DNA from: a virus
Taxonomy: Duplodnaviria > Heunggongvirae > Uroviricota > Caudoviricetes
IMG/VR virus record: IMGVR_UViG_2802429225_000008
Length of the DNA stretch: 38,441 nucleotides
Direction: 5' to 3' (one strand)
Shown here: positions 1 through 18,333 of the stretch, in pieces
How the letters are laid out: each line of letters begins with the position of its first letter
How positions within the stretch are numbered: the first letter of the stretch is position 1
Made by a program: the position numbers and the translations under genes
The notes under the pieces: model-generated
Told to the model about the DNA's origin: nothing
Database searches by the model: none
Seen by the model: only the letters and a program-made list of their open reading frames with translations

Positions 1-723
1 TTACGGGGTAATGCCAACCGCTGCCGCCACTTTGTCGCCACTAGTGCTTTGTTTTTCGAATTCATCTAAGGCTCTTTCAACATCAGAAAGATACTCTTTG
101 AATGAGTTCAAGATCATGCTTAACGAGCCCCCCATAAATAGGACCTGTTTTCCATCTTTTTTAAAAAAATCAGGATATTTTTCTATAAGTTCAATAATGC
201 TTTTAATATTTTGCCCATCGTTTTCTAAGTATTTTGCATCATTATGCGCACAACTGTTTCTTAATTTTGTTATTTTTTTGATATTCGAATAGTGGGATGT
301 TGACTTCATCCCTATCATTTTTTTGATAAATAGATGGCTCCTCTCAAATCCACTTCCTTTGAGATCTGAAACATTTATAGGAGAATGATGTCTATTAGCA
401 AAGTTGTTACAGAATTTTTCTATTTCGTGCTCAAAAATTCCGAATATAGTTAAGAATACTGACCTGCGGATAATACTTGGGTAGTATTCTAAAAACATTT
501 CATCGAGATCTAGCGATGAGCTGGTGAGTCCCATGTAATGATCAATTGACTGGTATACACCATCTTCCGGAGATATTTCAATTATATATTCTTCAGGTCC
601 TTTGTCTTTATATTCTGCTATGCCCTTAGCGATTGATGATTCGCTATGAGTGATTAACGTCTCGATAATATCAAATGTTAAGGAGAAGTCGAATATTGGT
701 AATTGAAACAAAAACTTAACCAT
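1..723 (-). CDS. HEPN-motif protein (Rx4H: RNSCAH), AT-rich cargo gene between attL and int; C-terminus runs off the window
   Basis: ORF 1..756 on the minus strand contains ...KLRNSCAHND..., a canonical HEPN Rx4-6H motif. Likely start is the second ATG at 723 (AAGG 7 nt upstream); an ATG at 756 would overlap int by 23 nt. No stop codon before position 1. Confidence 0.55.
   Translation of the reverse strand: MVKFLFQLPIFDFSLTFDIIETLITHSESSIAKGIAEYKDKGPEEYIIEISPEDGVYQSIDHYMGLTSSSLDLDEMFLEYYPSIIRRSVFLTIFGIFEHEIEKFCNNFANRHHSPINVSDLKGSGFERSHLFIKKMIGMKSTSHYSNIKKITKLRNSCAHNDAKYLENDGQNIKSIIELIEKYPDFFKKDGKQVLFMGGSLSMILNSFKEYLSDVERALDEFEKQSTSGDKVAAAVGITP
19..42. repeat. attL: Putative attL core (cgctgccgccactttgtcgccact), direct repeat of 35585-35608
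   Basis: 22 of 24 positions identical to the sequence immediately after the ogr stop codon; lies beyond the int/cargo end of the prophage. Confidence 0.5.
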
Positions 724-733
724 GCTTGAACCT

Positions 734-1765
734 TTAAGAATCTGATTTAGTAACATCCAAAGTTGCTAGTGGATTGAAACGAAGAGCTGTCTCTAAGTGA
801 TCAGGTGATAGATGAGCATAACGCATAGTCATTTTTATGTCGTGATGTCCGAGGATTTTTTGCAAAGCAAGGATGTTTCCACCCGACATCATGAAATGCG
901 CCGCAAACGTATGACGCAGAACGTGTGTAAGTTGACCGCGAGGGAGCACGATAGACGTTTTTTCCATCACGGATAAAAATTGAAAATAGCAGTCTGTGAA
1001 GAAATTGAACCCATCAAGCGCCATGATCTCTTCATAAAGCTCTTTACTGATAGGGATGCTTCTGTTTTTCTTCCCCTTCGTTCTTACAAAGGTAATTCGG
1101 TATTTGGTCACCTGTGATCGGGTAAGGTTTATTGCTTCTCGCCAGCGTGCGCCTGTGCTTAAGCATATCTTGACTACCAGTGCCAGAATTGGGTCCTGAC
1201 GTTTGCAATCATCCAGCAGTTCAACAATCTGCTCATGGGTAAGCCATGCCATCTCTTTTTCTGCGATGGTGAATTTTCGCATGTTCTCCAGTGGGTTTGG
1301 ATACGACCATTCGCCCAGGCGGGATAGTTCGCTAAAAACACTACTTAGATAGCTTTGCTCTAGGTTAATGGTGACCGGGCTGGCCCCTTTCTTCCATTTC
1401 TCGCTGAAATAGATCTCACCTGTCAGTCGTTTATCTCGATAATGGGCAAACATTTTAGATGTGAGATCGGTTGCAAGGGGATTGCCCAGAGCGTCAACCA
1501 TCAGCAGCAATTTGTCATAGACATGCTGCCCAGCAGTCAGAGATTTACCATGTAGTTTGAACCATAGCTCAACCACGTCTTTCAGGGTTCGACGATCTAC
1601 TGATTCGCCCAGCCAGGGCTTTGCTTCGGTTTCTTCCATCGTGTGACGCTCAAAAGCCAGTGCTTCGCCTTTGGTGGCGAATTGTTTACGCACACGACGC
1701 CCACTACGTCCGGCGGGGTAACATTCGCAAAGCCATTTTCCTGTGGTGAGTTTTCGTACTGCCAT
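734..1765 (-). CDS. int: Tyrosine recombinase, P2-type phage integrase
   Basis: Translation carries the conserved C-terminal integrase box (...LTHVLRHTFAAHFMMSGGNILALQKILGHHDIKMTMRYAHL...) and resembles P2 Int throughout; start taken at the internal ATG 1763-1765 (MAVRKLTTGKW...). Confidence 0.9.
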   Translation of the reverse strand: MAVRKLTTGKWLCECYPAGRSGRRVRKQFATKGEALAFERHTMEETEAKPWLGESVDRRTLKDVVELWFKLHGKSLTAGQHVYDKLLLMVDALGNPLATDLTSKMFAHYRDKRLTGEIYFSEKWKKGASPVTINLEQSYLSSVFSELSRLGEWSYPNPLENMRKFTIAEKEMAWLTHEQIVELLDDCKRQDPILALVVKICLSTGARWREAINLTRSQVTKYRITFVRTKGKKNRSIPISKELYEEIMALDGFNFFTDCYFQFLSVMEKTSIVLPRGQLTHVLRHTFAAHFMMSGGNILALQKILGHHDIKMTMRYAHLSPDHLETALRFNPLATLDVTKSDS

Positions 1766-5241: not shown

Positions 5242-6095
5242 GCACCATCCTGAAATGGGCGGGAAATAAAACCGCCATTATGTCCGAACTGAAAAAACAC
5301 CTTCCTGCTGGCCCGCGACTGGTTGAACCTTTCGCGGGTTCCTGTGCTGTGATGATGGAGACGGATTACCCCAGCTATCTGGTTGCGGATATTAATCCTG
5401 ATTTAATCAACCTCTATAAAAAGGTTGCCGCTGATTGTGAATCGTTTATATCTCGCGCCAGAGTTTTATTTGAGATCGCAAACAGGGAGGTGGCTTATTA
5501 CAACATAAGGCAGGAGTTTAATTACTCAACTGAAATTACTGATTTCATGAAAGCGGTATATTTCCTGTATCTCAATCGTCACGGTTACCGTGGTTTATGT
5601 CGCTATAACAAGAGCGGGCATTTCAACATTCCCTACGGTAATTATAAAAATCCGTATTTCCCTGAAAAAGAAATTCGCGCATTTGCAGAAAAAGCCCAGC
5701 GAGCAATGTTTATCTGCGCCAGCTTTGATGAAACGCTGGCGATGTTGAAGGCGGGGGATGTGGTGTATTGCGATCCGCCGTATGACGGTACGTTTTCCGG
5801 CTATCACACTGATGGTTTCACTGAAGATGACCAGTATCACCTGGCATCCGTTCTTGAACATCGGTCATCAGAAGGACATCCGGTCATTGTTTCTAACAGT
5901 GACACATCCCTGATCCGTTCGCTGTATCGCAATTTTACTCACCACTATATCAAGGTAAAACGCAGCATCGGTGTGGCAGCTGGCGAGGGTAAATCAGCAA
6001 CAGAAATCATTGCTGTTTCCGGGCCGCGCTGCTGGGTGGGATTTGATTATTCGCGTGGCGTGGATAGTTCTGCCGTGTACGGAGTGCGTGCATGA
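5238..6095 (+). CDS. dam: DNA adenine methyltransferase (Dam-like, D12 class)
   Basis: ILKWAGNK N-terminal motif, FAGS motif I and DPPY catalytic motif; start ATG 5238 after GGAGG. Confidence 0.85.
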
Positions 6096-8506
6096 GCCAT
6101 GCTGATATGAACAACTGCAGCGGCTTTAACGAGGCCGCCGCAGCATTCTCATGGAACAGCCCGAAAAAGGCGATTAACCCTTATCTGGACCCGGCGGAAG
6201 TTGCGCCGGTTTCTGCGCTTTCAAACCTGATCACTCTGTACGCTGCCGATAACAAGCAGGAACAACTGCGCCGCGAGGCACTGAGTGATCAGGTCTGGGA
6301 GCGTTATTTCTTTAATGAATCCCGTGATCCTGTCCAGCGCGAAATGGAGCAGGATAAGCTCATTAGCCGGGCAAAGCTGGTGCATGAGCAGCAGCGTTTT
6401 AATCCGGACATGGTCATACTGGCGGACGTTAACGCCCAGCCTTCCCATATCAGCAAGCCGCTGATGCAACGTATTGAATACTTCAGCAGCCTGGGCAGGC
6501 CAAAGGCTTATTCCCGCTATTTGCGTGAGACGATTAAACCATGTCTGGAACGACTGGAGCATGTACGCGACAGCCAGCTATCTGCATCTTTTCGTTTTAT
6601 GGCAAGCCATGAAGGGCTGGACGGCCTGCTGATCTTGCCTGAAATGAGTCAGGATCAGGTGAAGCGCCTGTCTACCCTTGTTGCCGCGCATATGAGCATG
6701 TGCCTTGATGCAGCTTGTGGTGATTTGTATGCCACCGATGACGTTAAGCCAGAAGAAATCCGCAAGACATGGGAAAGGGTGGCGGCGGAAACCCTGCGTC
6801 TGGATGTCATCCCTCCTGCGTTTGAGCAACTCCGCCGGAAAAGAAACCGCCGTAAACCCGTACCCTATGAACTCATTCCGGGTTCGCTGGCGCGTATGTT
6901 GTGCGCCGACTGGTGGTATCGGAAATTATGGAAGATGCGTTGCGAATGGCGGGAAGAGCAGTTGCGTGCTGTTTGCCTGGTCAGCAAAAAAGCATCTCCC
7001 TATGTCAGCTATGAAGCCGTGATGCATAAACGTGAGCAGCGCCGTAAGTCGCTGGAGTTTTTCCGTTCTCATGAACTGGTGAACGAAGACGGCGACACGC
7101 TGGATATGGAGGACGTGGTAAACGCCAGTAGTAGCAACCCGGCGCATCGCCGCAATGAGATGATGGCATGTGTTAAAGGTCTGGAGCTTATCGCGGAAAT
7201 GCGCGGTGACTGCGCCGTTTTCTACACCATCACCTGTCCGTCACGTTTCCATTCCACGCTAAATAACGGCAGGCCCAACCCGACTTGGACAAATGCGACG
7301 GTAAGACAAAGCAGTGATTATCTGGTCGGCATGTTTGCTGCATTTCGTAAGGCGATGTACAAAGCCGGATTGCGCTGGTATGGCGTGCGGGTGGCTGAGC
7401 CGCATCATGACGGTACAGTTCACTGGCACCTGTTGTGTTTTATGCGCAAAAAAGATCGCCGCGCCATTACTGCTTTGTTGCGTAAGTTTGCCATTCGTGA
7501 AGACCGCGAGGAGCTGGGTAATAACACAGGACCACGCTTTAAGTCTGAGCTGATAAACCCGCGCAAAGGTACACCAACAAGCTACATCGCGAAATACATC
7601 AGTAAGAACATTGACGGGCGTGGTCTGGCTGGCGAGATCAGCAAGGAAACGGGTAAATCTCTGCGTGATAACGCTGAATACGTTAATGCCTGGGCGTCTC
7701 TGCATCGTGTTCAGCAATTCCGCTTCTTTGGCATTCCGGGGCGTCAGGCTTACCGTGAACTGCGATTGCTGGCTGGTCAGGCGGCAAGGCAACAGGGTGA
7801 CAAAAAAGCAGGTGCGCCGGTACTGGATAACCCGCGCCTTGATGCCATTCTGGCTGCAGCTGATGCTGGTTGCTTTGCCACCTACATCATGAAGCAGGGC
7901 GGCGTACTGGTTCCCCGTAAATATCACCTCATCAGAACCGCTTATGAAATCAACGAAGAGCCGACCGCCTATGGCGATCACGGTATTCGTATTTATGGCA
8001 TCTGGTCACCCATTGCAGAGGGCAAGATCTGCACTCATGCAGTGAAGTGGAAAATGGTCCGTAAAGCCGTTGACGTTCAGGAGGCGGCAGCCGACCAGGG
8101 CGCTTGCGCCCCTTGGACTCGTGGCAATAACTGTCCCCTTGCTGAAAATTTGAACCAACAAGGGAAAGACAAATCAGCTGATGGGGATATCAGAACGGAC
8201 ATTACCCGCATGGATGACAAGGAGTTGCACGAATACCTGCACAGTATGAGCAAAAAAGAGCGCCGGGAACTGGCTGCAAGGTTACGCCTGGTGAAACCGA
8301 AACGGCGTAAAGACTACAAACAGCGAATTACAGACCATCAGCGACAGCAGCTCGTCTATGAACTGAAGTCCAGAGGATTTGATGGCAGCGAGAAAGAGGT
8401 CTATTTACTCCTTCGTGGCGGCAGTATTCCGTCAGGAGCAGGCCTGCGTATCTTCTATCGGAACCAGCGTTTGCAGGAAGATGATAAGTGGCGGAACCTG
8501 TATTAA
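6092..8506 (+). CDS. A: Replication initiation endonuclease (P2 gpA / 186 RepA family, rolling circle)
   Basis: 804-aa protein with the His-hydrophobic-His type block ([11 protein letters not shown]) and key-tyrosine region ([11 protein letters not shown]) typical of P2 A. Confidence 0.85.
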
Positions 8507-8658: not shown

Positions 8659-8847
8659 ATGCAGGACTATTTTTTGGAGTCTTTGAAGCTCCAGCGCATT
8701 GATTTTTTTCTTAAGCTTGTAGCGGCTAGTGAGTGTAGTGATGAAGAGAAGGGGCTGGCTCTGCAGTGGGTATCTGAATTGACTGATGAACTCATGGCAA
8801 AAATCAGAACCCACGAATACAACCGCTCAATGGATGTCATCAGTTGA
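8659..8847 (+). CDS. Small protein of an SOS-controlled operon (Tum-like antirepressor candidate)
   Basis: Strong RBS AGGAGGA; immediately downstream of the LexA box; same position as tum in 186 (after A, before cos). Confidence 0.55.
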   Translation: MQDYFLESLKLQRIDFFLKLVAASECSDEEKGLALQWVSELTDELMAKIRTHEYNRSMDVIS

Positions 8848-8857
8848 GGTGACTTTT

Positions 8858-9091
8858 ATGCGCATTGAAATAATGATCGATAAAGAGCAGAAGATTAGCC
8901 AGTCTACCCTGGACGCCCTTGAATCCGAGCTTTACCGCAATCTGCGCCCCCTGTATCCCAAAACGGTAATTCGCATTCGCAAAGGTAGCTCTAACGGTGT
9001 GGAACTAACCGGACTGCAACTGGACGAAGAAAGAAAACAAGTGATGAAAATTATGCAGAAGGTGTGGGAAGACGACAGCTGGCTGCATTAA
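8858..9091 (+). CDS. DinI-family protein
   Basis: MRIEIMIDKEQKISQSTLDALESELYRNL...VWEDDSWL resembles E. coli DinI; RBS GAGGTGA before ATG 8858. Confidence 0.75.
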   Translation: MRIEIMIDKEQKISQSTLDALESELYRNLRPLYPKTVIRIRKGSSNGVELTGLQLDEERKQVMKIMQKVWEDDSWLH

Positions 9092-9226
9092 GAAACGTTG
9101 CTGGCGTCTGAACTTGCTTCTGGCGTCAGCAAGGTTGAACAACGAGCCCTTGCGAGGCGTTAGCTCTGTAGTGCATGTCTATGCCGCATGAGATCGCATG
9201 ATCGTTTGAGGATCGTTTTTGCTAAG

Positions 9227-9250
9227 GCCCGCCAGAACTGGCGGGCTTTT
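9227..9250 (+). terminator. Rho-independent terminator (gcccgccag-aac-tggcgggc-tttt)
   Basis: 8-bp GC-rich perfect stem, 3-nt loop and a T run, downstream of the tum/DinI operon. Confidence 0.6.
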
Positions 9251-9285
9251 GCGTAGATCATGCAGGTGCATGAAAACCACTACAT

Positions 9286-9304
9286 AAAGCGGGCAGGCGT
9301 GGCG
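9286..9304. other. cos: Candidate cos site (GGCGTGGCGGGGATACGAG)
   Basis: First 13 nt identical to the 186/P2 cohesive-end sequence as I recall it (GGCGTGGCGGGGAAAGCAT / GGCGAGGCGGGGAAAGCAC); lies between the early region and the packaging genes as in P2/186. Confidence 0.45.
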
Positions 9305-9505
9305 GGGATACGAGCGCGCGCTGAAAAGGTTTAGCTAAATTTTTGTCGATAGGTGGTTTTAGTTGTTATACAAAAGTGTCACTGGTTTTGTTTTGAGCAT
9401 TTGTGGTGCTAAAAATATTTTTTTTGGTTCAAAATTACCTTAAAAAGGTTTTTTTGGTGTATGATTGTTTGAAAAGTGGTTCGGTTTTGCCATAAGGGTG
9501 GTTAG

Positions 9506-10588
9506 ATGATAAACGTTACAAACGAAATGCTCATTGATGTTGTCAGTGATGCTCTTACCGGGAAGAGGGAAAGTCTCCTCATGCGGTTGCGGATTATGGC
9601 AAAAAAACTAAAAAAAGAATCTCCTGAATTAGCGGGTAAATTAGAAGATTTACTTATTAATACAGGTGGCGCAATTGCAGTCGAAAGGGCTAATCCAGTT
9701 GTTCCTAAAATAACACCTGTTGATGCGGATACAAGACAAAAGCTGCTAGTTGAAACATATCCTGTGGTCATTGATGTTGAACCTGTTTGGCCAACAAAAA
9801 CTGATGTTCAACTGAATCGATTTGTGGCTGAGTGGGAAATGAAAGAACGCCTTTATAAAGAAGGGTTGCATCCGTCCAAATCTCTTCTTATGGGAGGACC
9901 ACCCGGTGTGGGGAAGACTTTGGCTGCAAAGTGGCTCGCTTTTAAACTCGATATGCCATTGTTAACATTAGATCTCGCAAGTGTAATGAGTAGCTACTTG
10001 GGGAAAACGGGTAATAATATTAAGGCAGTCCTCAATTATGCTTCGTCATTCCCTTGTGTACTGCTTCTTGACGAATTTGATGCGATTGCTAAAAAAAGGG
10101 ATGATGCAACAGATGTTGGAGAACTAAAAAGATTAGTTACAGTATTATTGCAAGCAATTGATGAATGGCCAAATACGTCTGTTCTTATAGCAGCAACTAA
10201 CCATGCGGAGCTGCTTGATCCTGCTGCATGGAGAAGATTCGATCGAGTTATTGATTTTGAATATCCAACACAAGACCTAATGAGAAGATATCTCTGTTCT
10301 AAAAATATTGGAGATAGCTTATCGTACTATATTGCTACAAAACTCGAAAAAGTTTCATATGCAGTTCTTGAGAGAGCTATAAATCAAGCTAAAAGAAATG
10401 CCATTATAGAAGATATTCCTTTAAGTTCAGCTTTAATTGATGAGTTGTTAGATGGCGTGTCACTTGATGATGTTATAAAAAACATGTCAAACAACAATGT
10501 ATCACAAAGAAAAATCGCTTTAGATTTGGGGATTTCAAGGTCACAAGTACGTAAGGTTTTGACGGTTGAGGATGAAGACAATGAATGA
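9506..10588 (+). CDS. AAA+ ATPase (IetA-like) of an ATPase/subtilase pair
   Basis: Walker A GPPGVGKT, Walker B LLLDEFD, sensor-1 ATNH, then AAWRRFD; AT-rich by eye; 8-nt overlap with the downstream protease gene. Confidence 0.8.
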   Translation: MINVTNEMLIDVVSDALTGKRESLLMRLRIMAKKLKKESPELAGKLEDLLINTGGAIAVERANPVVPKITPVDADTRQKLLVETYPVVIDVEPVWPTKTDVQLNRFVAEWEMKERLYKEGLHPSKSLLMGGPPGVGKTLAAKWLAFKLDMPLLTLDLASVMSSYLGKTGNNIKAVLNYASSFPCVLLLDEFDAIAKKRDDATDVGELKRLVTVLLQAIDEWPNTSVLIAATNHAELLDPAAWRRFDRVIDFEYPTQDLMRRYLCSKNIGDSLSYYIATKLEKVSYAVLERAINQAKRNAIIEDIPLSSALIDELLDGVSLDDVIKNMSNNNVSQRKIALDLGISRSQVRKVLTVEDEDNE

Positions 10589-11690
10589 TAAAAATATGCT
10601 TCTTGGCTATGGTGAAACACTAACTAACCCTGTTAAACTTAACAGAGGTGGAGGTGAAAAGAATAAACCTTACTCTTATTCAGAAAATAAACCAGTGATA
10701 TCTGCTCAACTGGAAGAGTTGATTGAGGAAATTAATACCCTTCCATTGTTAGCAATGCCTGAAGGTAAGGCTGTAGCAAAATTTGTTTTGCATCCGGCAT
10801 TCTTAGCAAAAAGTTATTTTCCAGTAAGTCTTTTTGAGCGATTTTCCCTAGAAAGCATAGGCAGTAAGGCTGTAAAAGTAAAACCTAGAAAAGATATTAA
10901 AAAAAGAGGGCGAAAAGAGGAATACACTACAGCGTGTATTTATGTTTCTGGCAAAAAAGAAAGTTTTCAATCATTCTTAGACTCTGTAAATCAAGATACC
11001 CTAACGAAAGGGCAGCAAAATGATTTTGTCACCTTAGAAAATATTTCAATACTGGAAGTTTCAGATAAAGTAAAAACGATTAATAGCAATGAAGTTATGA
11101 GTATTGAGGTCGCCTTACATACTCCTGATACAATTTCCTCTATTGTCGATAGTTTTGAAGTTTTTGCTTCGCAAAATGGTGCTGTTATAGATAAGGCAAG
11201 AAGTATAAAGGTTAAGGGGCTAACCTTTATGCCTATTAAGGCTAGTAAAGATGTAGCTTTAAAAGTTGCAGAGTTTTCATTTCTCAGGACTTTGAGAGAA
11301 CTTCCTGAATTAAGGCTAAGTGAGCCTGTTATATCACGTTCTGTGATTCAAACATCTAACCTTAGTTTACCATCTGAAGGAGCGGTAAACCCACACATAA
11401 AGGTTGCCATATTCGATGGTGGATTGGGGATCGATGATTTCAATCCTTGGGTAACAGAGTACACTTTCAACGGTAATGCTAGTACTAATGCAAAACTTCT
11501 TTCTCATGGACAGGATGTCACCTCTACTGTGTTATTTGGTGTTCTTGGCTCTGAAACGGAAAAATTAAGTGTTCCTTATTGTAATATTGACCATTATCGT
11601 GTACTGGATTCTAATGTTAATAACTCAGATGTCGATCTTTTTGACGTTCTGATCCGTATTAAAAGTGTATTAGAACAAAAAAAAATATGA
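10581..11690 (+). CDS. S8 subtilisin-like serine protease (IetS-like), N-terminal part; interrupted by a frameshift at the A9 run 11677-11685
   Basis: Contains the catalytic Asp motif (VAIFDGG) and His motif (SHGQDVTS); ends ...LEQKKI* directly after a run of nine A. Start ATG 10581 preferred (GAGGA 9 nt upstream). Confidence 0.7.
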   Translation: MNDKNMLLGYGETLTNPVKLNRGGGEKNKPYSYSENKPVISAQLEELIEEINTLPLLAMPEGKAVAKFVLHPAFLAKSYFPVSLFERFSLESIGSKAVKVKPRKDIKKRGRKEEYTTACIYVSGKKESFQSFLDSVNQDTLTKGQQNDFVTLENISILEVSDKVKTINSNEVMSIEVALHTPDTISSIVDSFEVFASQNGAVIDKARSIKVKGLTFMPIKASKDVALKVAEFSFLRTLRELPELRLSEPVISRSVIQTSNLSLPSEGAVNPHIKVAIFDGGLGIDDFNPWVTEYTFNGNASTNAKLLSHGQDVTSTVLFGVLGSETEKLSVPYCNIDHYRVLDSNVNNSDVDLFDVLIRIKSVLEQKKI

Positions 11691-11739
11691 TTATATCAAT
11701 CTGAGCTTAGGACCTAGATTACCTGTTGATGACGATGAC

Positions 11740-12774
11740 GTGCATGTGTGGACCTCAACTCTTGAGGAGATACTTGCATCAGGAGAAACACTTTGTACTG
11801 TCGCGGTTGGAAATGATGGTCAGCTGCCTGCCAAGTTAAATCGAATTCAACCACCTGCTGATTTAGTTAATGGTCTGTCAGTAGGTGCAGCAACCTCTTT
11901 ATCTGATAGTTGGGAAAGATGTTCTTACAGTTGTATTGGTCCTGGACGAAGCCCTGGCTTTGTGAAGCCTGATGGAGTTGCATTTGGAGGACATTCTGAT
12001 GAGCCATTCCAGGTATACAGCCCTATGGTTAATGGTCTTGCCCGCACTGCGGGGACTAGCTTTTCAGCTCCATTAGTCCTGAGGCAAGCAATCGCGTTAA
12101 GTGCTTCTCTAAATTACAACATTACACCACTTACGGCTAAAGCTCTGCTTATACATCATGCGGAGAGCAATAATATCAATCGTGCTGAAGTTGGTTGGGG
12201 ACGATTTCCTCATGATCTTAGTGAAGTAATATTTTGTGATGATGATGAAGTTAAAGTTATATATCAAGGTACTTTAAAACCATCACAACACATGCGAGCA
12301 CCTATTCCGTTTCCAGATGTACCTATGCGTGGATGTGTAAATTTAAGAGCGACATTCTGCTTTTCCAGTCCTGTAGATGCGGAACATCCTTTGAATTATA
12401 CAAGAAGCGGTCTAGAAGTAACCATGAGAAAAGGTGTTTCAGATAGTTCCGGGTTAACGTTTCCTCTTTTTAATCTAAAAAATGTTTATGCAGATGAAAA
12501 TGAGCAACGTGTTGATGCACATAAATGGGAGACTACGTTAAGAAGTGAACACAAATTTAAACCGAATGAGCTGACAAACCCATGCTTTGATATTATCTAC
12601 TATGGTAGAGACTGTGGTATGCCTATTGATGTTGACGAGTTAGAAGAACTACCATATGTTCTTGTCGTGACTTTATCTGCTGAAGAAATGCCGGATTTAT
12701 ATAACCTAATTAGGCAGAAATATCAAACCTTACAGCCTATCCAAGTTCAACAGCAAATTATGTTACGTACTTAA
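11740..12774 (+). CDS. S8 subtilisin-like serine protease (IetS-like), C-terminal part in the +1 frame
   Basis: The frame is open from 11674 and reads KKKYDYINLSLGP...CTVAVGNDG...GTSFSAP, i.e. the subtilase INLSLG block, oxyanion-hole Asn and catalytic Ser. Continuous with the upstream ORF if one A is removed. Confidence 0.7.
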   Translation: MHVWTSTLEEILASGETLCTVAVGNDGQLPAKLNRIQPPADLVNGLSVGAATSLSDSWERCSYSCIGPGRSPGFVKPDGVAFGGHSDEPFQVYSPMVNGLARTAGTSFSAPLVLRQAIALSASLNYNITPLTAKALLIHHAESNNINRAEVGWGRFPHDLSEVIFCDDDEVKVIYQGTLKPSQHMRAPIPFPDVPMRGCVNLRATFCFSSPVDAEHPLNYTRSGLEVTMRKGVSDSSGLTFPLFNLKNVYADENEQRVDAHKWETTLRSEHKFKPNELTNPCFDIIYYGRDCGMPIDVDELEELPYVLVVTLSAEEMPDLYNLIRQKYQTLQPIQVQQQIMLRT

Positions 12775-12781
12775 CAATGTG

Positions 12782-12804
12782 GAGGGGTTCCCCCTCCTTT
12801 ATTA
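12782..12804 (+). terminator. Hairpin terminator (ggagggg-ttc-cccctcc followed by a T-rich run) between convergent genes
   Basis: 7-bp perfect stem followed by TTTATT, between the protease gene stop (12774) and the portal gene stop (12813). Confidence 0.5.
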
Positions 12805-12812
12805 AGCTTTAT

Positions 12813-13865
12813 CTATGTTGATTGTGGGTCATCGTTTATTAAGTTATATTTTTCAAAATGGATAATATTAATTCCTAACCATTCATTAAATTCCTGTAAT
12901 CGTTTTTGTAAAGGCATTAATTCATTTCGAACAAACACTCGACTCGCCTTCTCTACATCTCCAAATCCTCCAACATTACTTGGCATAATCCCCATCATTT
13001 GCGGCGGCACACGGTGTGCCGCCATCATGTCGTCTCGGCTCACGTTCTTGATGTTCAGAAATTCATCCTTCGCTGCGACTTCTGACAGCGGGATGATCTG
13101 AAGCCCGTCCTTTTTGCCGTTAGGCGAGTACATAAACAGGTTGCGGAAGTTGCCTGGACCTTTGGCGCTTTTCATCGCGTTGCGGAGGTTGTTCACATCT
13201 TCCTGGTTCTGCGCGGCGTCGGTCATATACATGATGAAGCCAGCATGACTGCCGTTAATGTAATACTTTCGACGGAACAGCGTGGCGGACTCATTGAGCA
13301 GGGCGGACGGAATGGCAGAAAGATAGCCGGGCAAGCCGTAGATCTCCTGGTTAATGTCCGGTTCCATCAGATGAAAAATGCTGCCTTTCGTGAACTGATA
13401 TGGCTGGGTTGTCATACCGTATTGCACAAACCAGTAGGTATCCAGGTCTAACCCGCGTCGGGTGTATTTTGCCAGCGCAGGCTCAAGGGCGATAACTTCA
13501 CCGAAGCGGTTCGTGCGTTTCTCCAGGTAGGCGTTACCAAAAACCAGATAGTCCTGCACAAAACGCGAAAAAGCCTGCTGGCTGAGCAGCGGGTGAGGGA
13601 TGTAGGTGCTGGTCAAAATGTTGCATTTCACCGCAATCGGTGAGCTGTGATGCACGGCGGCGCGGAAGGTTCGTGCCAGTCCGTCAAAGCTGACGGGCGG
13701 CTCATACCAGCGATCCATCTGTACGCATTCCACATAGTCCAGCAGTTCGCGGCGGTCCAGAACAGGAACGGGATCACCGAAGCTGAATGCTTCGGCTGAA
13801 GTCTGGCTTTTATGCTGGTTCTGGTTCGTCGACGCAGCGCGGTTCTTCTTACTCTTTCCCATCAA
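12813..13865 (-). CDS. Q: Portal protein (P2 gpQ family)
   Basis: 350-aa ORF resembling P2 Q; first gene of the packaging block, adjacent to and co-oriented with the large terminase. Confidence 0.85.
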   Translation of the reverse strand: MMGKSKKNRAASTNQNQHKSQTSAEAFSFGDPVPVLDRRELLDYVECVQMDRWYEPPVSFDGLARTFRAAVHHSSPIAVKCNILTSTYIPHPLLSQQAFSRFVQDYLVFGNAYLEKRTNRFGEVIALEPALAKYTRRGLDLDTYWFVQYGMTTQPYQFTKGSIFHLMEPDINQEIYGLPGYLSAIPSALLNESATLFRRKYYINGSHAGFIMYMTDAAQNQEDVNNLRNAMKSAKGPGNFRNLFMYSPNGKKDGLQIIPLSEVAAKDEFLNIKNVSRDDMMAAHRVPPQMMGIMPSNVGGFGDVEKASRVFVRNELMPLQKRLQEFNEWLGINIIHFEKYNLINDDPQST

Positions 13866-15628
13866 AAAATCTCCACAATATTGCTGGCATTGGCGGACTC
13901 GCCCTGCAGCGGTTCGTTAAACAGTGCGTGCATTGTTGCCCAGGCCAGATCGGCATGGCTGGCTTCTTCGCTGCGGCTGGCTTCATAGGTCGGGCGGTTG
14001 CCGCTGGCGGTGGTGGCGCGACGGATTGCCATGAATGACTGCGCAATGTCGGTGTGTCCGGCGTCAAATTCCAGGCGGCGGTGACTGATAATGTCGTAGG
14101 CCTTGAGTACCAGGGCGTTTTTAACGTTGGGGTTGTAGACAAACTCCCGGACGGCAGGAAAAAACGCTTTCACGTTCTCGTAAACCCCGTGACCGACGCC
14201 GGTCGAGTCGATGCCGATATAGGTCACGTTATACTGTTCGGTCAGTTTTTTGATGGCGTCAGCCTGGGCGCGGAAGTCCATTCCGCGCCACTGGTGACGC
14301 TCAAGAATGCGGAACTTACCGCCCGGCACGGCTGGCGGTGCCACCACCACGCATCCGGCGCTGTCGCCGTTCTGCGTACCTTTTGCCGGGTCATAACCGA
14401 TCCACACTTCGCGCCAGCCAAACGGGCGCAGGGCCAGTGCATGAAAGTCGGTCCAGACTTCCCAACTGTCCACCATGCACGCCTGCAGCTCGCTGAGTGG
14501 GAACACGGACGCGAGATCGTCCACGAACTCACACATCAGCAGGTTCTGGTATTCGTCCGGGCTGTATTCCATGCGCAACTGGTCAAGGTCGAACAGGTTA
14601 CAGCCGCCGCGCACCGCATCTTCTACGGTGACTATCTGGCGGTATTGCCCGTCTGCGCACAGCAGGCCGGGGGCCAGATTGCTGTGGGACAGGTCGATGT
14701 CCACCTTGTCGGCTTTGTTGCGTCCACGGTTGAACAGCGCACCGGACCAGAACGGATAAGCACTGTGGGTCAGGCTGGATGGCGTGGAAAAATAGGTTTG
14801 TCGCCATTTTTTGTGAATAGCCATACCGGAAGCCACTTTGCGCAGCTCCTGGAATTTCGGTATCCAGAAATATTCATCCAGATACAGGTTGCCGTGGTAA
14901 CTCTGGGCAGTGCGGGCATTGGTGCCGAGGAAATACAGTGTGGCCCCGTTGGGAAGCACCATCGGATCGCCTTTCAGCTCCACTTCCACTTCTTTGGCGA
15001 AGTCGATGATGTACTGCTTAAAGACGTGCGCCTGTGCCTTACTGGCAGAAAGGAAAATCTGGTTACGTCCGGTTAGCAGGGCGTCAATCAGGGCTTCACG
15101 GGCAAAATAGAAGGTCGCGCCGATCTGGCGTGACTTCAGCAGGTTGCGGATGCGGTTGGTTTTTCCGGCTTCCCACCAGTGACGCTGGTAGTTGAACATG
15201 GAGGAATGGAAGATTTCTTCCAGCTTCTCAATCTGTTCATCGGTGAAAACATTCTTTTCAGGCTGACGGCGCGGGCCTTTGTTGCGGTTGGCGACGTTAG
15301 GGTTTAAGTCGGCTTCGTTGCCGCCATTGTTAAACTTGCCGATCCGCGCGTGGCGCTCAGACTGGCGCGCCAGCAGGTCAATCTCTTTGAAATCTTTCCC
15401 TTCTTTGTGCTCCTTCATAATGAGCTGGCAGTAGCGTGCGGCAGTGGTGAGCTGCATCTGATCCAGCGGCCCATAGTCACCCCACTTGTCGCGTTTTTTC
15501 CAGCTGTGAACGGTTGCAACTTTCTCGCCCAGCATTTCAGCAATGCGGGCTACGCGGTATCCCTGAAAGTACAGCAGCATGGCCTGCCGACGGGGATCGA
15601 GATCTGCGGGTGTCAGTGTGGTGTTCAT
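13862..15628 (-). CDS. P: Terminase large (ATPase) subunit (P2 gpP family)
   Basis: 588-aa ORF resembling P2 P; overlaps the Q start by 4 nt. Confidence 0.9.
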   Translation of the reverse strand: MNTTLTPADLDPRRQAMLLYFQGYRVARIAEMLGEKVATVHSWKKRDKWGDYGPLDQMQLTTAARYCQLIMKEHKEGKDFKEIDLLARQSERHARIGKFNNGGNEADLNPNVANRNKGPRRQPEKNVFTDEQIEKLEEIFHSSMFNYQRHWWEAGKTNRIRNLLKSRQIGATFYFAREALIDALLTGRNQIFLSASKAQAHVFKQYIIDFAKEVEVELKGDPMVLPNGATLYFLGTNARTAQSYHGNLYLDEYFWIPKFQELRKVASGMAIHKKWRQTYFSTPSSLTHSAYPFWSGALFNRGRNKADKVDIDLSHSNLAPGLLCADGQYRQIVTVEDAVRGGCNLFDLDQLRMEYSPDEYQNLLMCEFVDDLASVFPLSELQACMVDSWEVWTDFHALALRPFGWREVWIGYDPAKGTQNGDSAGCVVVAPPAVPGGKFRILERHQWRGMDFRAQADAIKKLTEQYNVTYIGIDSTGVGHGVYENVKAFFPAVREFVYNPNVKNALVLKAYDIISHRRLEFDAGHTDIAQSFMAIRRATTASGNRPTYEASRSEEASHADLAWATMHALFNEPLQGESANASNIVEIF

Positions 15629-17682: not shown

Positions 17683-18333
17683 ATGAGCCTGAGTCCCGCA
17701 CGGCAGCATCGCCTGCGCGTTCAGGCTGAACAGGCCGCCCGCGAGGGCGGCAGTGTTCGCCACGCGTCGGGCTATGACCTGATGCTGCTGCAACTGGCGG
17801 AAGACCGCCGTCGTCTCAAGGGCGTTCAGTCCACGGTCAAAAAAGCGGAAATCAAAGTGGAGCTGCTGCCGAAGTACGCCGCCTGGGCGGAGGGTGTCCT
17901 GGCTGCCGGAGGCGCTCAACAGGATGACGTGCTGATGTACGTGATGCTGTGGCGCATTGATGCCGGAGATTATGCCGGGGCGCTGGAGATCGGGCGTCAT
18001 GCCCTGCGTCATGGCTGGGTGATGCCGCTGGGTAATCGCAACGTGCAGACCGTGCTGGCAGAGGAAATGGCAGACGCCGCACAGAGCGCAATGCTTGCCG
18101 CCACCGGCTTTGATGTCGATCTGTTGCTGCAGACGCTGGAGCTGACAGACGGTCTGGATATGCCGGACCAGTCACGGGCGCGTCTGCATAAAGCGATTGG
18201 CGCGGTCCTGAGTGAAAGCAATCCGGCTTCCGCCCTTAATCATCTCAACCATGCGTTACAGCTCGATCCCCGCTGTGGCGTGAAAAAAGACAAACAGCAG
18301 CTGGAGCGCAGACTGCGCAATGACAGCTGCTGA
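17683..18333 (+). CDS. M: Terminase small (endonuclease) subunit (P2 gpM family)
   Basis: Position after N and size in the P2 late operon. Confidence 0.8.
   Translation: MSLSPARQHRLRVQAEQAAREGGSVRHASGYDLMLLQLAEDRRRLKGVQSTVKKAEIKVELLPKYAAWAEGVLAAGGAQQDDVLMYVMLWRIDAGDYAGALEIGRHALRHGWVMPLGNRNVQTVLAEEMADAAQSAMLAATGFDVDLLLQTLELTDGLDMPDQSRARLHKAIGAVLSESNPASALNHLNHALQLDPRCGVKKDKQQLERRLRNDSC

What the first reader, a model, noticed from the sequence alone, without database searches (positions are those of the whole stretch)
9286..9304. cos-like sequence between the early region and the ATPase/protease insert
GGCGTGGCGGGGATACGAG matches the first 13 nt of the 19-nt cohesive-end sequence of 186/P2 as I remember it. 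If this is cos, the ATPase/protease pair lies between cos and Q, inside the packaged genome and immediately at the genome end.
Basis: partly seen in the sequence, partly recalled or inferred. Interest (0 to 1): 0.45.

Follow-up and report, generated by a model that had tools for sequence, protein, structure and literature searches.

The report
Cos packaging site of P2-like prophage
This is the ordinary DNA-packaging cut site (cos) of a P2/186/Fels-2-type prophage, with an already catalogued anti-phage gene pair (IetAS) sitting just after it in a known slot for foreign genes.

Summary
The 19-mer GGCGTGGCGGGGATACGAG is real and unique in the window, but lies at 9296-9314, 10 bases right of the reported coordinates. 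Its first 13 bases equal the annotated cos of phage 186 (12/13 to P2). It sits inside the 55-bp cos core shared by P2 and its satellite P4 (window 9267-9321; 42-44/55 identical to P2, 186 and P4). That core lies in a 152-bp conserved island (9171-9322) between DinI/Tum and the portal gene. The same 19-mer is the published, predicted cos of Salmonella phage SEN8, whose record starts with it, and it was the commonest variant in my P2-family surveys. It goes with terminases about 95% identical to the window's. Homology to relatives stops at 9321/9322 and resumes inside the portal gene's 3' end, so the low-GC 3.5-kb IetA/IetS insert does lie between cos and Q, at the left end of the packaged genome. 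It is not new: foreign DNA between cos and Q has been described since 1996, and this exact DinI + AAA + S8-peptidase arrangement is in Rousset et al. 2022's P2-hotspot table. I found no experimental end-mapping for this overhang variant. IetS is frameshifted in this window.

The parts
9296..9314 (+). Predicted 19-nt cohesive-end sequence (cosN overhang) GGCGTGGCGGGGATACGAG. The predicted top-strand nick is between 9295 and 9296, and the bottom-strand nick between 9314 and 9315.
   Evidence: 13/13 identical to the first 13 nt of the annotated 186 cos and 12/13 to P2; identical to bases 1-19 of the phage SEN8 record, annotated as putative cos. Nick positions are inferred by homology and not measured.
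9267..9321 (+). 55-bp cos core: 29 bp left arm, 19-nt overhang, 7 bp right. It contains a GCGNGC hexamer at positions -7 to -2 upstream of each predicted nick, one per strand (AGCGGGCA^ on top, AGCGCGCG^ on the bottom).
   Evidence: the block shared by P2 and P4 (52/55) is this size and in this register. The window is 42/55 identical to P2, 44/55 to 186, 43/55 to P4 and 54/55 to SEN8. cite the 55-bp core of Ziermann & Calendar 1990. The half-site symmetry is read directly from the sequences.
9171..9322 (+). Whole conserved cos module, a 152-bp island flanked on both sides by points where relatives carry different DNA.
   Evidence: the conservation profile runs from -127 to +27. L031 matches 8700-9163, then has its own roughly 730-bp insertion, then matches 9171-9322. 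L129, L048 and L085 lose homology at 9321/9322.
9173..9272 (.). Cluster of five GCATG/CATGC motifs (starting at 9173, 9186, 9196, 9259 and 9268) in the left arm. These are candidate small-terminase (gpM) binding sites.
   Evidence: 5 motifs in 127 bp against 0.21 expected from the window. 127-bp stretches with 4-5 motifs are very rare in the window (50 of about 38,300). 186, P4 and SEN8 have 4-5 GCATG/CATGC motifs in the same arm; P2 has one, plus four of the related TGCAT/ATGCA motif. The proposed function is inference only.
9227..9250 (+). GC-rich hairpin (GCCCGCCAG...CTGGCGGGC) followed by TTTT, inside the cos module. It is probably the terminator of the DinI/Tum transcript and may also be part of the terminase-binding arm.
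   Evidence: minimum free energy -23.4 kcal/mol, z-score -4.9; the positions are conserved within the lineage.
8786..9091 (+). DinI/Tum-like gene, the last conserved phage gene before cos (at the right end of the virion genome).
   Evidence: Pfam DinI, E=1.3e-22; the 186 tum gene is at the equivalent position.
9323..12851 (+). Variable cargo segment with low GC (33-41% against 53-59% in the neighbouring structural genes).
   Evidence: Different cargo occupies the same slot in 813R9, Cartapus and SEN8.
9506..10588 (+). IetA, an AAA ATPase of the IetAS defence pair.
   Evidence: Pfam AAA, E=5.4e-30. PADLOC IetA, E=6.7e-84.
10581..12774 (+). IetS, an S8 subtilase, disrupted here by a +1 frameshift in a run of A's at about 11676-11684. 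It reads as two ORFs, 10566-11690 and 11740-12774.
   Evidence: the two ORFs match IetS profile positions 25-349 and 383-634; relatives have a single 730-aa CDS; the window has an extra A, 9 A's against 8.
12781..12797 (.). GGAGGGG-TT-CCCCTCC hairpin between the convergent IetS and portal genes. It is a likely bidirectional terminator.
12813..13865 (-). Portal protein (homologue of P2 Q and 186 W).
   Evidence: Pfam Phage_portal; 76-98% identical in loci that carry the same overhang.
13862..15628 (-). Terminase large subunit (P2 gpP homologue), the enzyme expected to cut at cos.
   Evidence: Terminase_5, Terminase_6N and Terminase_6C domains; 100% identical to several IMG/VR loci that carry the same 19-mer.
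17683..18333 (+). Terminase small subunit (P2 gpM homologue), the expected cos-recognition subunit.
   Evidence: Pfam Phage_term_smal, E=2.6e-40.

Best explanation
Window 9171-9322 is the cos packaging site of a P2-family (186/Fels-2-like) prophage. After excision and replication as a circle, the phage terminase (small subunit gpM-like at 17683-18333, large subunit gpP-like at 13862-15628) recognises the conserved arm left of the cut. It then nicks the two strands 19 nt apart, between 9295/9296 on top and 9314/9315 on the bottom. This gives linear virion DNA with 5' overhangs GGCGTGGCGGGGATACGAG and its complement. All conserved sequence lies on the DinI side plus about 7 bp on the portal side. 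DNA from about +27 onward is therefore free to vary, and serves as a slot for foreign genes. Here that slot holds the IetA/IetS defence pair, which becomes the extreme left end of the packaged genome. Shown here: the sequence homology, the position, the conservation boundaries, the linkage of overhang type to terminase type, and the identity of the cargo. Inferred: the exact nick positions, the role of the GCATG motifs, and that this prophage is still packaging-competent.
For: The 19-mer is unique in the window and matches 186 cos 13/13. The 55-bp core is 42-44/55 identical to P2, 186 and P4 in exact register, and the left arm is conserved. The gene order gpA-DinI-site-(cargo)-portal-TerL is the same in every informative locus among 120 IMG/VR loci. 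In a survey anchored only in the left arm, 105 of 108 unique sites were followed in register by GGCGNGGCGGGG and 95 of 108 by GCGCGC at +21 to +26, with conservation collapsing after that. The overhang type tracks the terminase: window-type ends go with TerL at a median 95% identity to the window, and P2/186-type ends with about 64%. The SEN8 record is linearised exactly at this site, with an identical 19-mer named as cos. Window 9215-9321 is 100% identical to phage vB_EcoM-813R9. The terminase and portal genes are intact. Cleavage of closed circles at the 55-bp cos to give 19-nt ends is described for this family (PMC2231350).
Against: I found no experimental mapping of virion ends for this overhang variant. 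SEN8, Cartapus and Smp131 were all assigned by analogy with P2. The last 6 overhang bases differ from both P2 and 186. attL is not in the window, so I could not confirm that the prophage is complete or give its exact packaged length. The frameshift in IetS shows that some mutation, or a sequencing error, has occurred in this copy.
Confidence: 0.9

Rival explanations
1. The site is the true ortholog of cos but is no longer used, because the prophage is defective or cryptic. On this reading it is a relic and not a working packaging site.
For: IetS carries a frameshift. No att repeat was found in the window. There are no induction data.
Against: The cos module is 100% identical over 9215-9321 to phage vB_EcoM-813R9, and the core is 54/55 identical to SEN8, a phage isolated as virions. 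TerL, TerS and portal are full-length with all domains. TerL is 100% identical to several other loci. The frameshift is in cargo, not in a phage function, and lies in a homopolymer that could be a sequencing error.
Confidence: 0.06
2. The site is a functional cos, but in this lineage the cuts are placed differently from P2/186, giving a different overhang length or an offset. The altered last six bases would then not all be part of the overhang.
For: Positions 13-19 differ from P2/186 and were never mapped experimentally.
Against: The GCGNGC hexamers upstream of each predicted nick keep exactly the same spacing as in P2, 186 and P4. This argues for the same cut geometry. Only the interior of the overhang varies.
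Confidence: 0.03
3. The match is a chance GC-rich similarity with no relation to packaging.
For: Only 13 of 19 bases match the reference phages.
Against: No shuffle of the window gave a match. Conserved flanks, conserved gene context and more than 100 orthologous sites all point to homology.
Confidence: 0.01

Closest known systems
cos of coliphage 186 (Eganvirus) and of P2 (Peduovirus), with experimentally determined 19-nt 5' cohesive ends
   Same: It has the same position (after the gpA and tum/DinI region, before portal and TerL on the opposite strand). The first 13 overhang bases are the same (186) or 12/13 (P2). It has the same 55-bp core, the same left arm with GCATG/TGCAT motifs, and the same GCGCGC after the overhang.
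   Different: Overhang bases 14-19 are TACGAG instead of AAGCAT (186) or AAGCAC (P2). P2 keeps its cargo (old, tin) on the gpA side of cos, and 186 has orf97 there. Both have only about 190 bp between cos and the portal gene. The window has 3.5 kb there.
Predicted cos of Salmonella phage SEN8, and the Fels-2-type phages in general (Fels-2, RE2010, SopEPhi, Cartapus, 813R9)
   Same: The 19-mer is identical and the core is 54/55 identical to SEN8. These phages also carry cargo genes between cos and portal: a hypothetical protein plus an HNH endonuclease in SEN8, a DUF4145 protein in Cartapus, and a Hypoth_Ymh-domain protein in 813R9.
   Different: The cargo differs (IetAS here). In those records the cos is annotated only as putative, by homology.
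P2 cos-proximal defence hotspot (Rousset et al. 2022), and the cos-to-terminator replacement slot of 186-related prophages (Dodd & Egan 1996)
   Same: Variable, low-GC cargo lies between gpA and gpQ, next to cos. [quoted passage not shown]
   Different: Nothing substantive differs. The published hotspot is defined by its flanking genes and is not resolved into the two sides of cos.
cos of satellite phage P4
   Same: P4 has the same 55-bp core (43/55), the same left arm next to psu, and variable cargo (gop, beta, cII) starting right after the overhang on the same side as in the window.
   Different: P4 carries the P2-type overhang and has no terminase of its own. Some P4-like satellites in IMG/VR carry CTACGAG-type ends.
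Lambda cos (cosQ-cosN-cosB)
   Same: It works in a similar way. Staggered nicks by terminase lie at a partly symmetric site, with recognition sequences lying to one side of the cut.
   Different: There is no sequence relationship. From general knowledge, lambda has a 12-nt overhang and packages from concatemers, whereas the P2 family cuts closed circles.

Membership tests
P2-family (Peduoviridae) cos site | GC-rich 19-nt cohesive-end sequence homologous to GGCG(A/T)GGCGGGG... | tested here: met
   13/13 identical to 186 and 12/13 to P2 over the conserved part. Bases 14-19 are a known variable part.
P2-family (Peduoviridae) cos site | 55-bp conserved core around the overhang, shared by P2 and P4 | tested here: met
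   window 9267-9321 aligns without gaps. It is 42/55 identical to P2, 44/55 to 186 and 43/55 to P4.
P2-family (Peduoviridae) cos site | Location between the end of the early/replication region and the portal and large-terminase genes on the opposite strand | tested here: met
   gpA, DinI, portal and TerL domains; the same order is seen in every informative locus among 120 loci.
P2-family (Peduoviridae) cos site | Cognate terminase (gpP-like large and gpM-like small subunits) encoded by the same element | tested here: met
   Terminase_5/6N/6C and Phage_term_smal; overhang type co-varies with TerL identity.
P2-family (Peduoviridae) cos site | Virion DNA actually ends here with 19-nt 5' overhangs | not testable with these tools
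   This needs virion DNA. I found no published mapping for this variant.
P2 cos-proximal cargo/defence hotspot | Variable non-phage genes between gpA and gpQ, adjacent to cos, replaced by other genes in close relatives | tested here: met
   The exact arrangement is in the published table.
IetAS defence system | AAA ATPase IetA adjacent to S8 subtilase IetS | tested here: met
   IetA E=6.7e-84; the IetS halves score E=2.3e-13 and E=1.7e-27. AAA and Peptidase_S8.
IetAS defence system | Intact IetS reading frame | tested here: not met
   a +1 A in a homopolymer run splits the 730-aa protein in this window. It is intact in at least two of the 10 other full-length E. coli copies that I checked. This could be a real mutation or a sequencing error.
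IetAS defence system | Protective activity against phage or plasmid | not testable with these tools
   This needs an experiment.

The most novel reading that the evidence does not exclude
The P2-family cos may be strongly one-sided. All recognition sequence would sit on the gpA side, and only about 6-7 bp would be needed past the overhang. Position +26/+27 would then be a nucleotide-sharp, family-wide docking point for cargo exchange, in phages and in P4-like satellites alike. Lineages also differ in which side of cos they load: Fels-2-type on the portal side, P2/186-type on the gpA side. If the arm-bearing end is packaged first, as with lambda cosB, portal-side cargo such as IetAS would be the last DNA in and plausibly the first DNA into a newly infected cell. 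None of this is excluded by my data. The sharp boundary and the lineage bias are observed, and the rest is speculation.
Probability: 0.3. Interest if true: 0.3.

Novelty: already known. Interest (0 to 1): 0.12.

Why it matters
It matters little beyond correct annotation. Fixing cos at 9296-9314 sets the ends of the virion genome and shows that IetAS is packaged and transmitted with the phage, at its left end. That fits the published picture of cos-adjacent defence hotspots in P2-like phages. The only mildly useful additions are three details. The cargo boundary is sharp at +26/+27. Lineages differ in which side of cos carries the cargo. The overhang interior varies together with the terminase lineage and is also found in some P4-like satellites.

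Tried and rejected
I looked for a second cos-like site nearer the portal gene and found none, even with GGCGNGGCGGGG and one mismatch. I looked for experimental end-mapping of the TACGAG variant. SEN8, SEN4/5, Smp131 and Cartapus were all assigned by analogy or not mapped, and a PhageTerm search gave nothing relevant. I tried to read Ziermann & Calendar 1990 and Dodd & Egan 1996 directly, but neither is held, so I relied on how later papers cite them. I looked for att direct repeats to size the prophage and found none of 14 bp or more in the window, and no tRNA or tmRNA. The prophage length is therefore only a lower bound of about 35.7 kb. I searched for literature on which P2 DNA end is packaged first and found nothing usable. 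My first family survey fixed part of the overhang and the GCGCGC, so conservation there was circular. I repeated it with a left-arm-only anchor. I considered equating the 9227-9250 hairpin with the annotated 186 terminator t95b and rejected it, because t95b lies further upstream in 186.

Full report
OBSERVATION. The reported string GGCGTGGCGGGGATACGAG occurs once in the window, on the + strand, at 9296-9314 (readable). The reported coordinates (9286-9304) are 10 too low. The reference records annotate P2 cosL as GGCGAGGCGGGGAAAGCAC and 186 cos as GGCGTGGCGGGGAAAGCAT. No shuffle of the window produced a match within three mismatches. There is no second GGCGNGGCGGGG-like site in the window.

IT IS HOMOLOGY, NOT CHANCE. 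I rebuilt the circular junctions of P2, 186, P4 and SEN8 and laid them next to the window without gaps. The similarity extends far beyond the 19-mer. P2 and its satellite P4 are cut by the same terminase. They share 29 bp to the left, the 19-nt overhang and 7 bp to the right, at 52/55 identity. That is the size of the '55-bp core' that later papers attribute to Ziermann & Calendar 1990. The window's version is 9267-9321, TGCATGAAAACCACTACATAAAGCGGGCA|GGCGTGGCGGGGATACGAG|CGCGCGC. It is 42/55 identical to P2, 44/55 to 186, 43/55 to P4 and 54/55 to SEN8. Read directly from these sequences, each predicted nick is preceded on its own strand by a GCGNGC hexamer at positions -7 to -2: AGCGGGCA^ on the top strand and AGCGCGCG^ on the bottom. 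The spacing is the same in all five sequences. This explains why the interior of the overhang can vary while the cut geometry is kept.

CONTEXT. Pfam identifies gpA (6092-8506), DinI/Tum (8786-9091), portal (12813-13865, minus strand), large terminase with all three domains (13862-15628, minus strand) and small terminase (17683-18333). It also identifies integrase, a 186-type CI repressor, tail gene D and Ogr. This is a P2-family prophage in the usual order, and the site lies where cos lies in 186 and P2.

FAMILY SURVEY. An IMG/VR scan with GGCGWGGCGGGG-N8-GCGCGC returned 120 loci. Wherever the flanks were informative, gpA and DinI lay upstream and portal and TerL lay downstream on the opposite strand. 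The window's exact 19-mer was the commonest variant (26 of 120). The overhang type tracks the terminase lineage. Ends of the form xTACGA(G/T/C) go with TerL at a median 95% identity to the window's. P2/186-type ends go with a median of 64%. Because that pattern forced part of the site, I repeated the survey anchored only in the left arm. Of 108 unique sites, 105 were followed in register by GGCGNGGCGGGG and 95 by GCGCGC at +21 to +26. Information content then falls to zero. Within the window's lineage, the conserved block runs from about -127 to +27.

BOUNDARIES. Direct blastn comparisons define the module. Relatives with different cargo (813R9, L048, L085) match the window up to 9321/9322 and again from 12852-12897. 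L031 has its own insertion upstream and matches 8700-9163 and then 9171-9322. The cos module is therefore a discrete 152-bp island (9171-9322) with a variable point on each side. The module holds five GCATG/CATGC motifs, where 0.21 would be expected; 186, P4 and SEN8 have 4-5 in the same arm, and P2 mostly the related TGCAT/ATGCA form. I suggest these are small-terminase binding sites, but that is untested. It also holds a stable hairpin followed by a T-run at 9227-9250.

PUBLISHED STATUS OF THIS VARIANT. The Salmonella phage SEN8 record stops exactly at the base equivalent to 9295 and begins with the identical 19-mer, annotated 'putative cos site'. The genome announcement names ggcgtggcggggatacgag as the cos site, found by annotation. 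Cartapus and Smp131 were likewise assigned by analogy. I found no experimental end-mapping for this variant, and that is the one real gap.

THE INSERT. The segment from 9323 to about 12851 has 33-41% GC, against 53-59% in the structural genes. It encodes IetA (PADLOC E=6.7e-84) and IetS, an S8 subtilase. IetS is a single 730-aa CDS in E. coli relatives. In the window an extra A in a homopolymer run (9 A's against 8, at about 11676-11684) splits it into two ORFs. Eleven of 5,426 complete E. coli genomes have the same cos-IetAS-portal arrangement at 99.5% identity or more. About 1,277 genomes match at least part of the query, mostly only the cos block at its start.

IS THE ARRANGEMENT UNUSUAL? 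No. In the window's lineage, the distance from cos to the portal stop has a median of 1,801 bp and exceeds 400 bp in 24 of 27 loci. In P2/186-type loci the median is 199 bp, and the cargo sits on the gpA side instead. This sample is not dereplicated. SEN8, Cartapus and 813R9 all carry other genes in the same slot. The position between cosL and the gpQ homologue has been called a hotspot for foreign genes, with citations to Dodd & Egan 1996 and Nakayama 1999. Rousset et al. 2022 describe the gpA-gpQ cos-proximal locus as a defence hotspot. [quoted passage not shown] One of the genomes listed with it is NZ_CP025849 (my hit H156), and the system is labelled ietAS.

MECHANISM. For this family, closed circular DNA is cleaved at the 55-bp cos to give linear DNA with 19-nt cohesive ends. 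By homology, the window's terminase should nick between 9295/9296 and between 9314/9315. Virion DNA would then start with the overhang and run through IetA, IetS and the portal gene. It would end with gpA, DinI and the conserved arm. Which end enters the capsid first could not be established from the literature I could reach.

VERDICT. The feature is an ordinary, already described cos site next to an already catalogued cargo. Confidence that this is the functional or orthologous cos with P2-like cut geometry is about 0.9. The remainder is split between a relic site in a defective prophage and a shifted cut.

Noticed in passing
window 11676-11684 (within 10581-12774): IetS is split by a +1 frameshift in a run of A's: 9 A's here against 8 in E. 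coli relatives, where it is one 730-aa S8 peptidase. This is either a real inactivating mutation or a homopolymer sequencing error.
   Followed up: yes
window 9173-9272: Five GCATG/CATGC motifs lie in the conserved arm left of the cut, against 0.21 expected. 186, P4 and SEN8 have 4-5 in the same arm; P2 has one, plus four of the related TGCAT/ATGCA motif. They may be small-terminase binding sites.
   Followed up: partly
IMG/VR loci L007-L126: Lineages differ in which side of cos carries cargo. Loci with the window-type overhang load the portal side (median 1,801 bp). P2/186-type loci load the gpA side (median 199 bp to the portal gene and about 2,250 bp from gpA). The sample is not dereplicated.
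   Followed up: partly
L020, L067, L126; L009, L086, L125: P4-like satellites (alpha primase, int, and sid/psu homologues) carry non-P2 overhang variants: CTACGAG, close to the window's type, and AGAGCAT. This suggests satellites match the cos variant of particular helper lineages.
   Followed up: partly
window 12813-12897: Homology to relatives with other cargo resumes 40-85 bp inside the portal gene's 3' end. Cargo replacement therefore also swaps the last roughly 13-28 portal codons and the downstream hairpin at 12781-12797.
   Followed up: partly
window 26817-28028 (-): An opposite-strand Acyl_transf_3 gene lies between ORFs that, by P2 gene order, should be the tail-fibre and tail-sheath genes (I did not identify those ORFs). 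By position it looks like a second cargo gene, possibly for surface-polysaccharide modification.
   Followed up: partly
window 21621-22373 (-): An opposite-strand 250-aa ORF sits inside the late gene block and has no Pfam or PADLOC hit.
   Followed up: partly
window 1-756 (-): A 251-aa ORF overlaps the end of the integrase ORF (734-1843) by 23 bp. It has no Pfam hit and only a weak PADLOC HEC-01A match (E=0.005). attL was not found in the window, so this gene may still be inside the prophage.
   Followed up: partly
E. coli NZ_CP018995 and NZ_CM176496: In two genomes, an IS421-family IS4-like element is annotated within the stretch that matches the window's IetAS segment.
   Followed up: no
L073 and L145: Two copies of the left-arm cos core occur within one locus. 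This may reflect a phage next to a satellite, or tandem elements.
   Followed up: no
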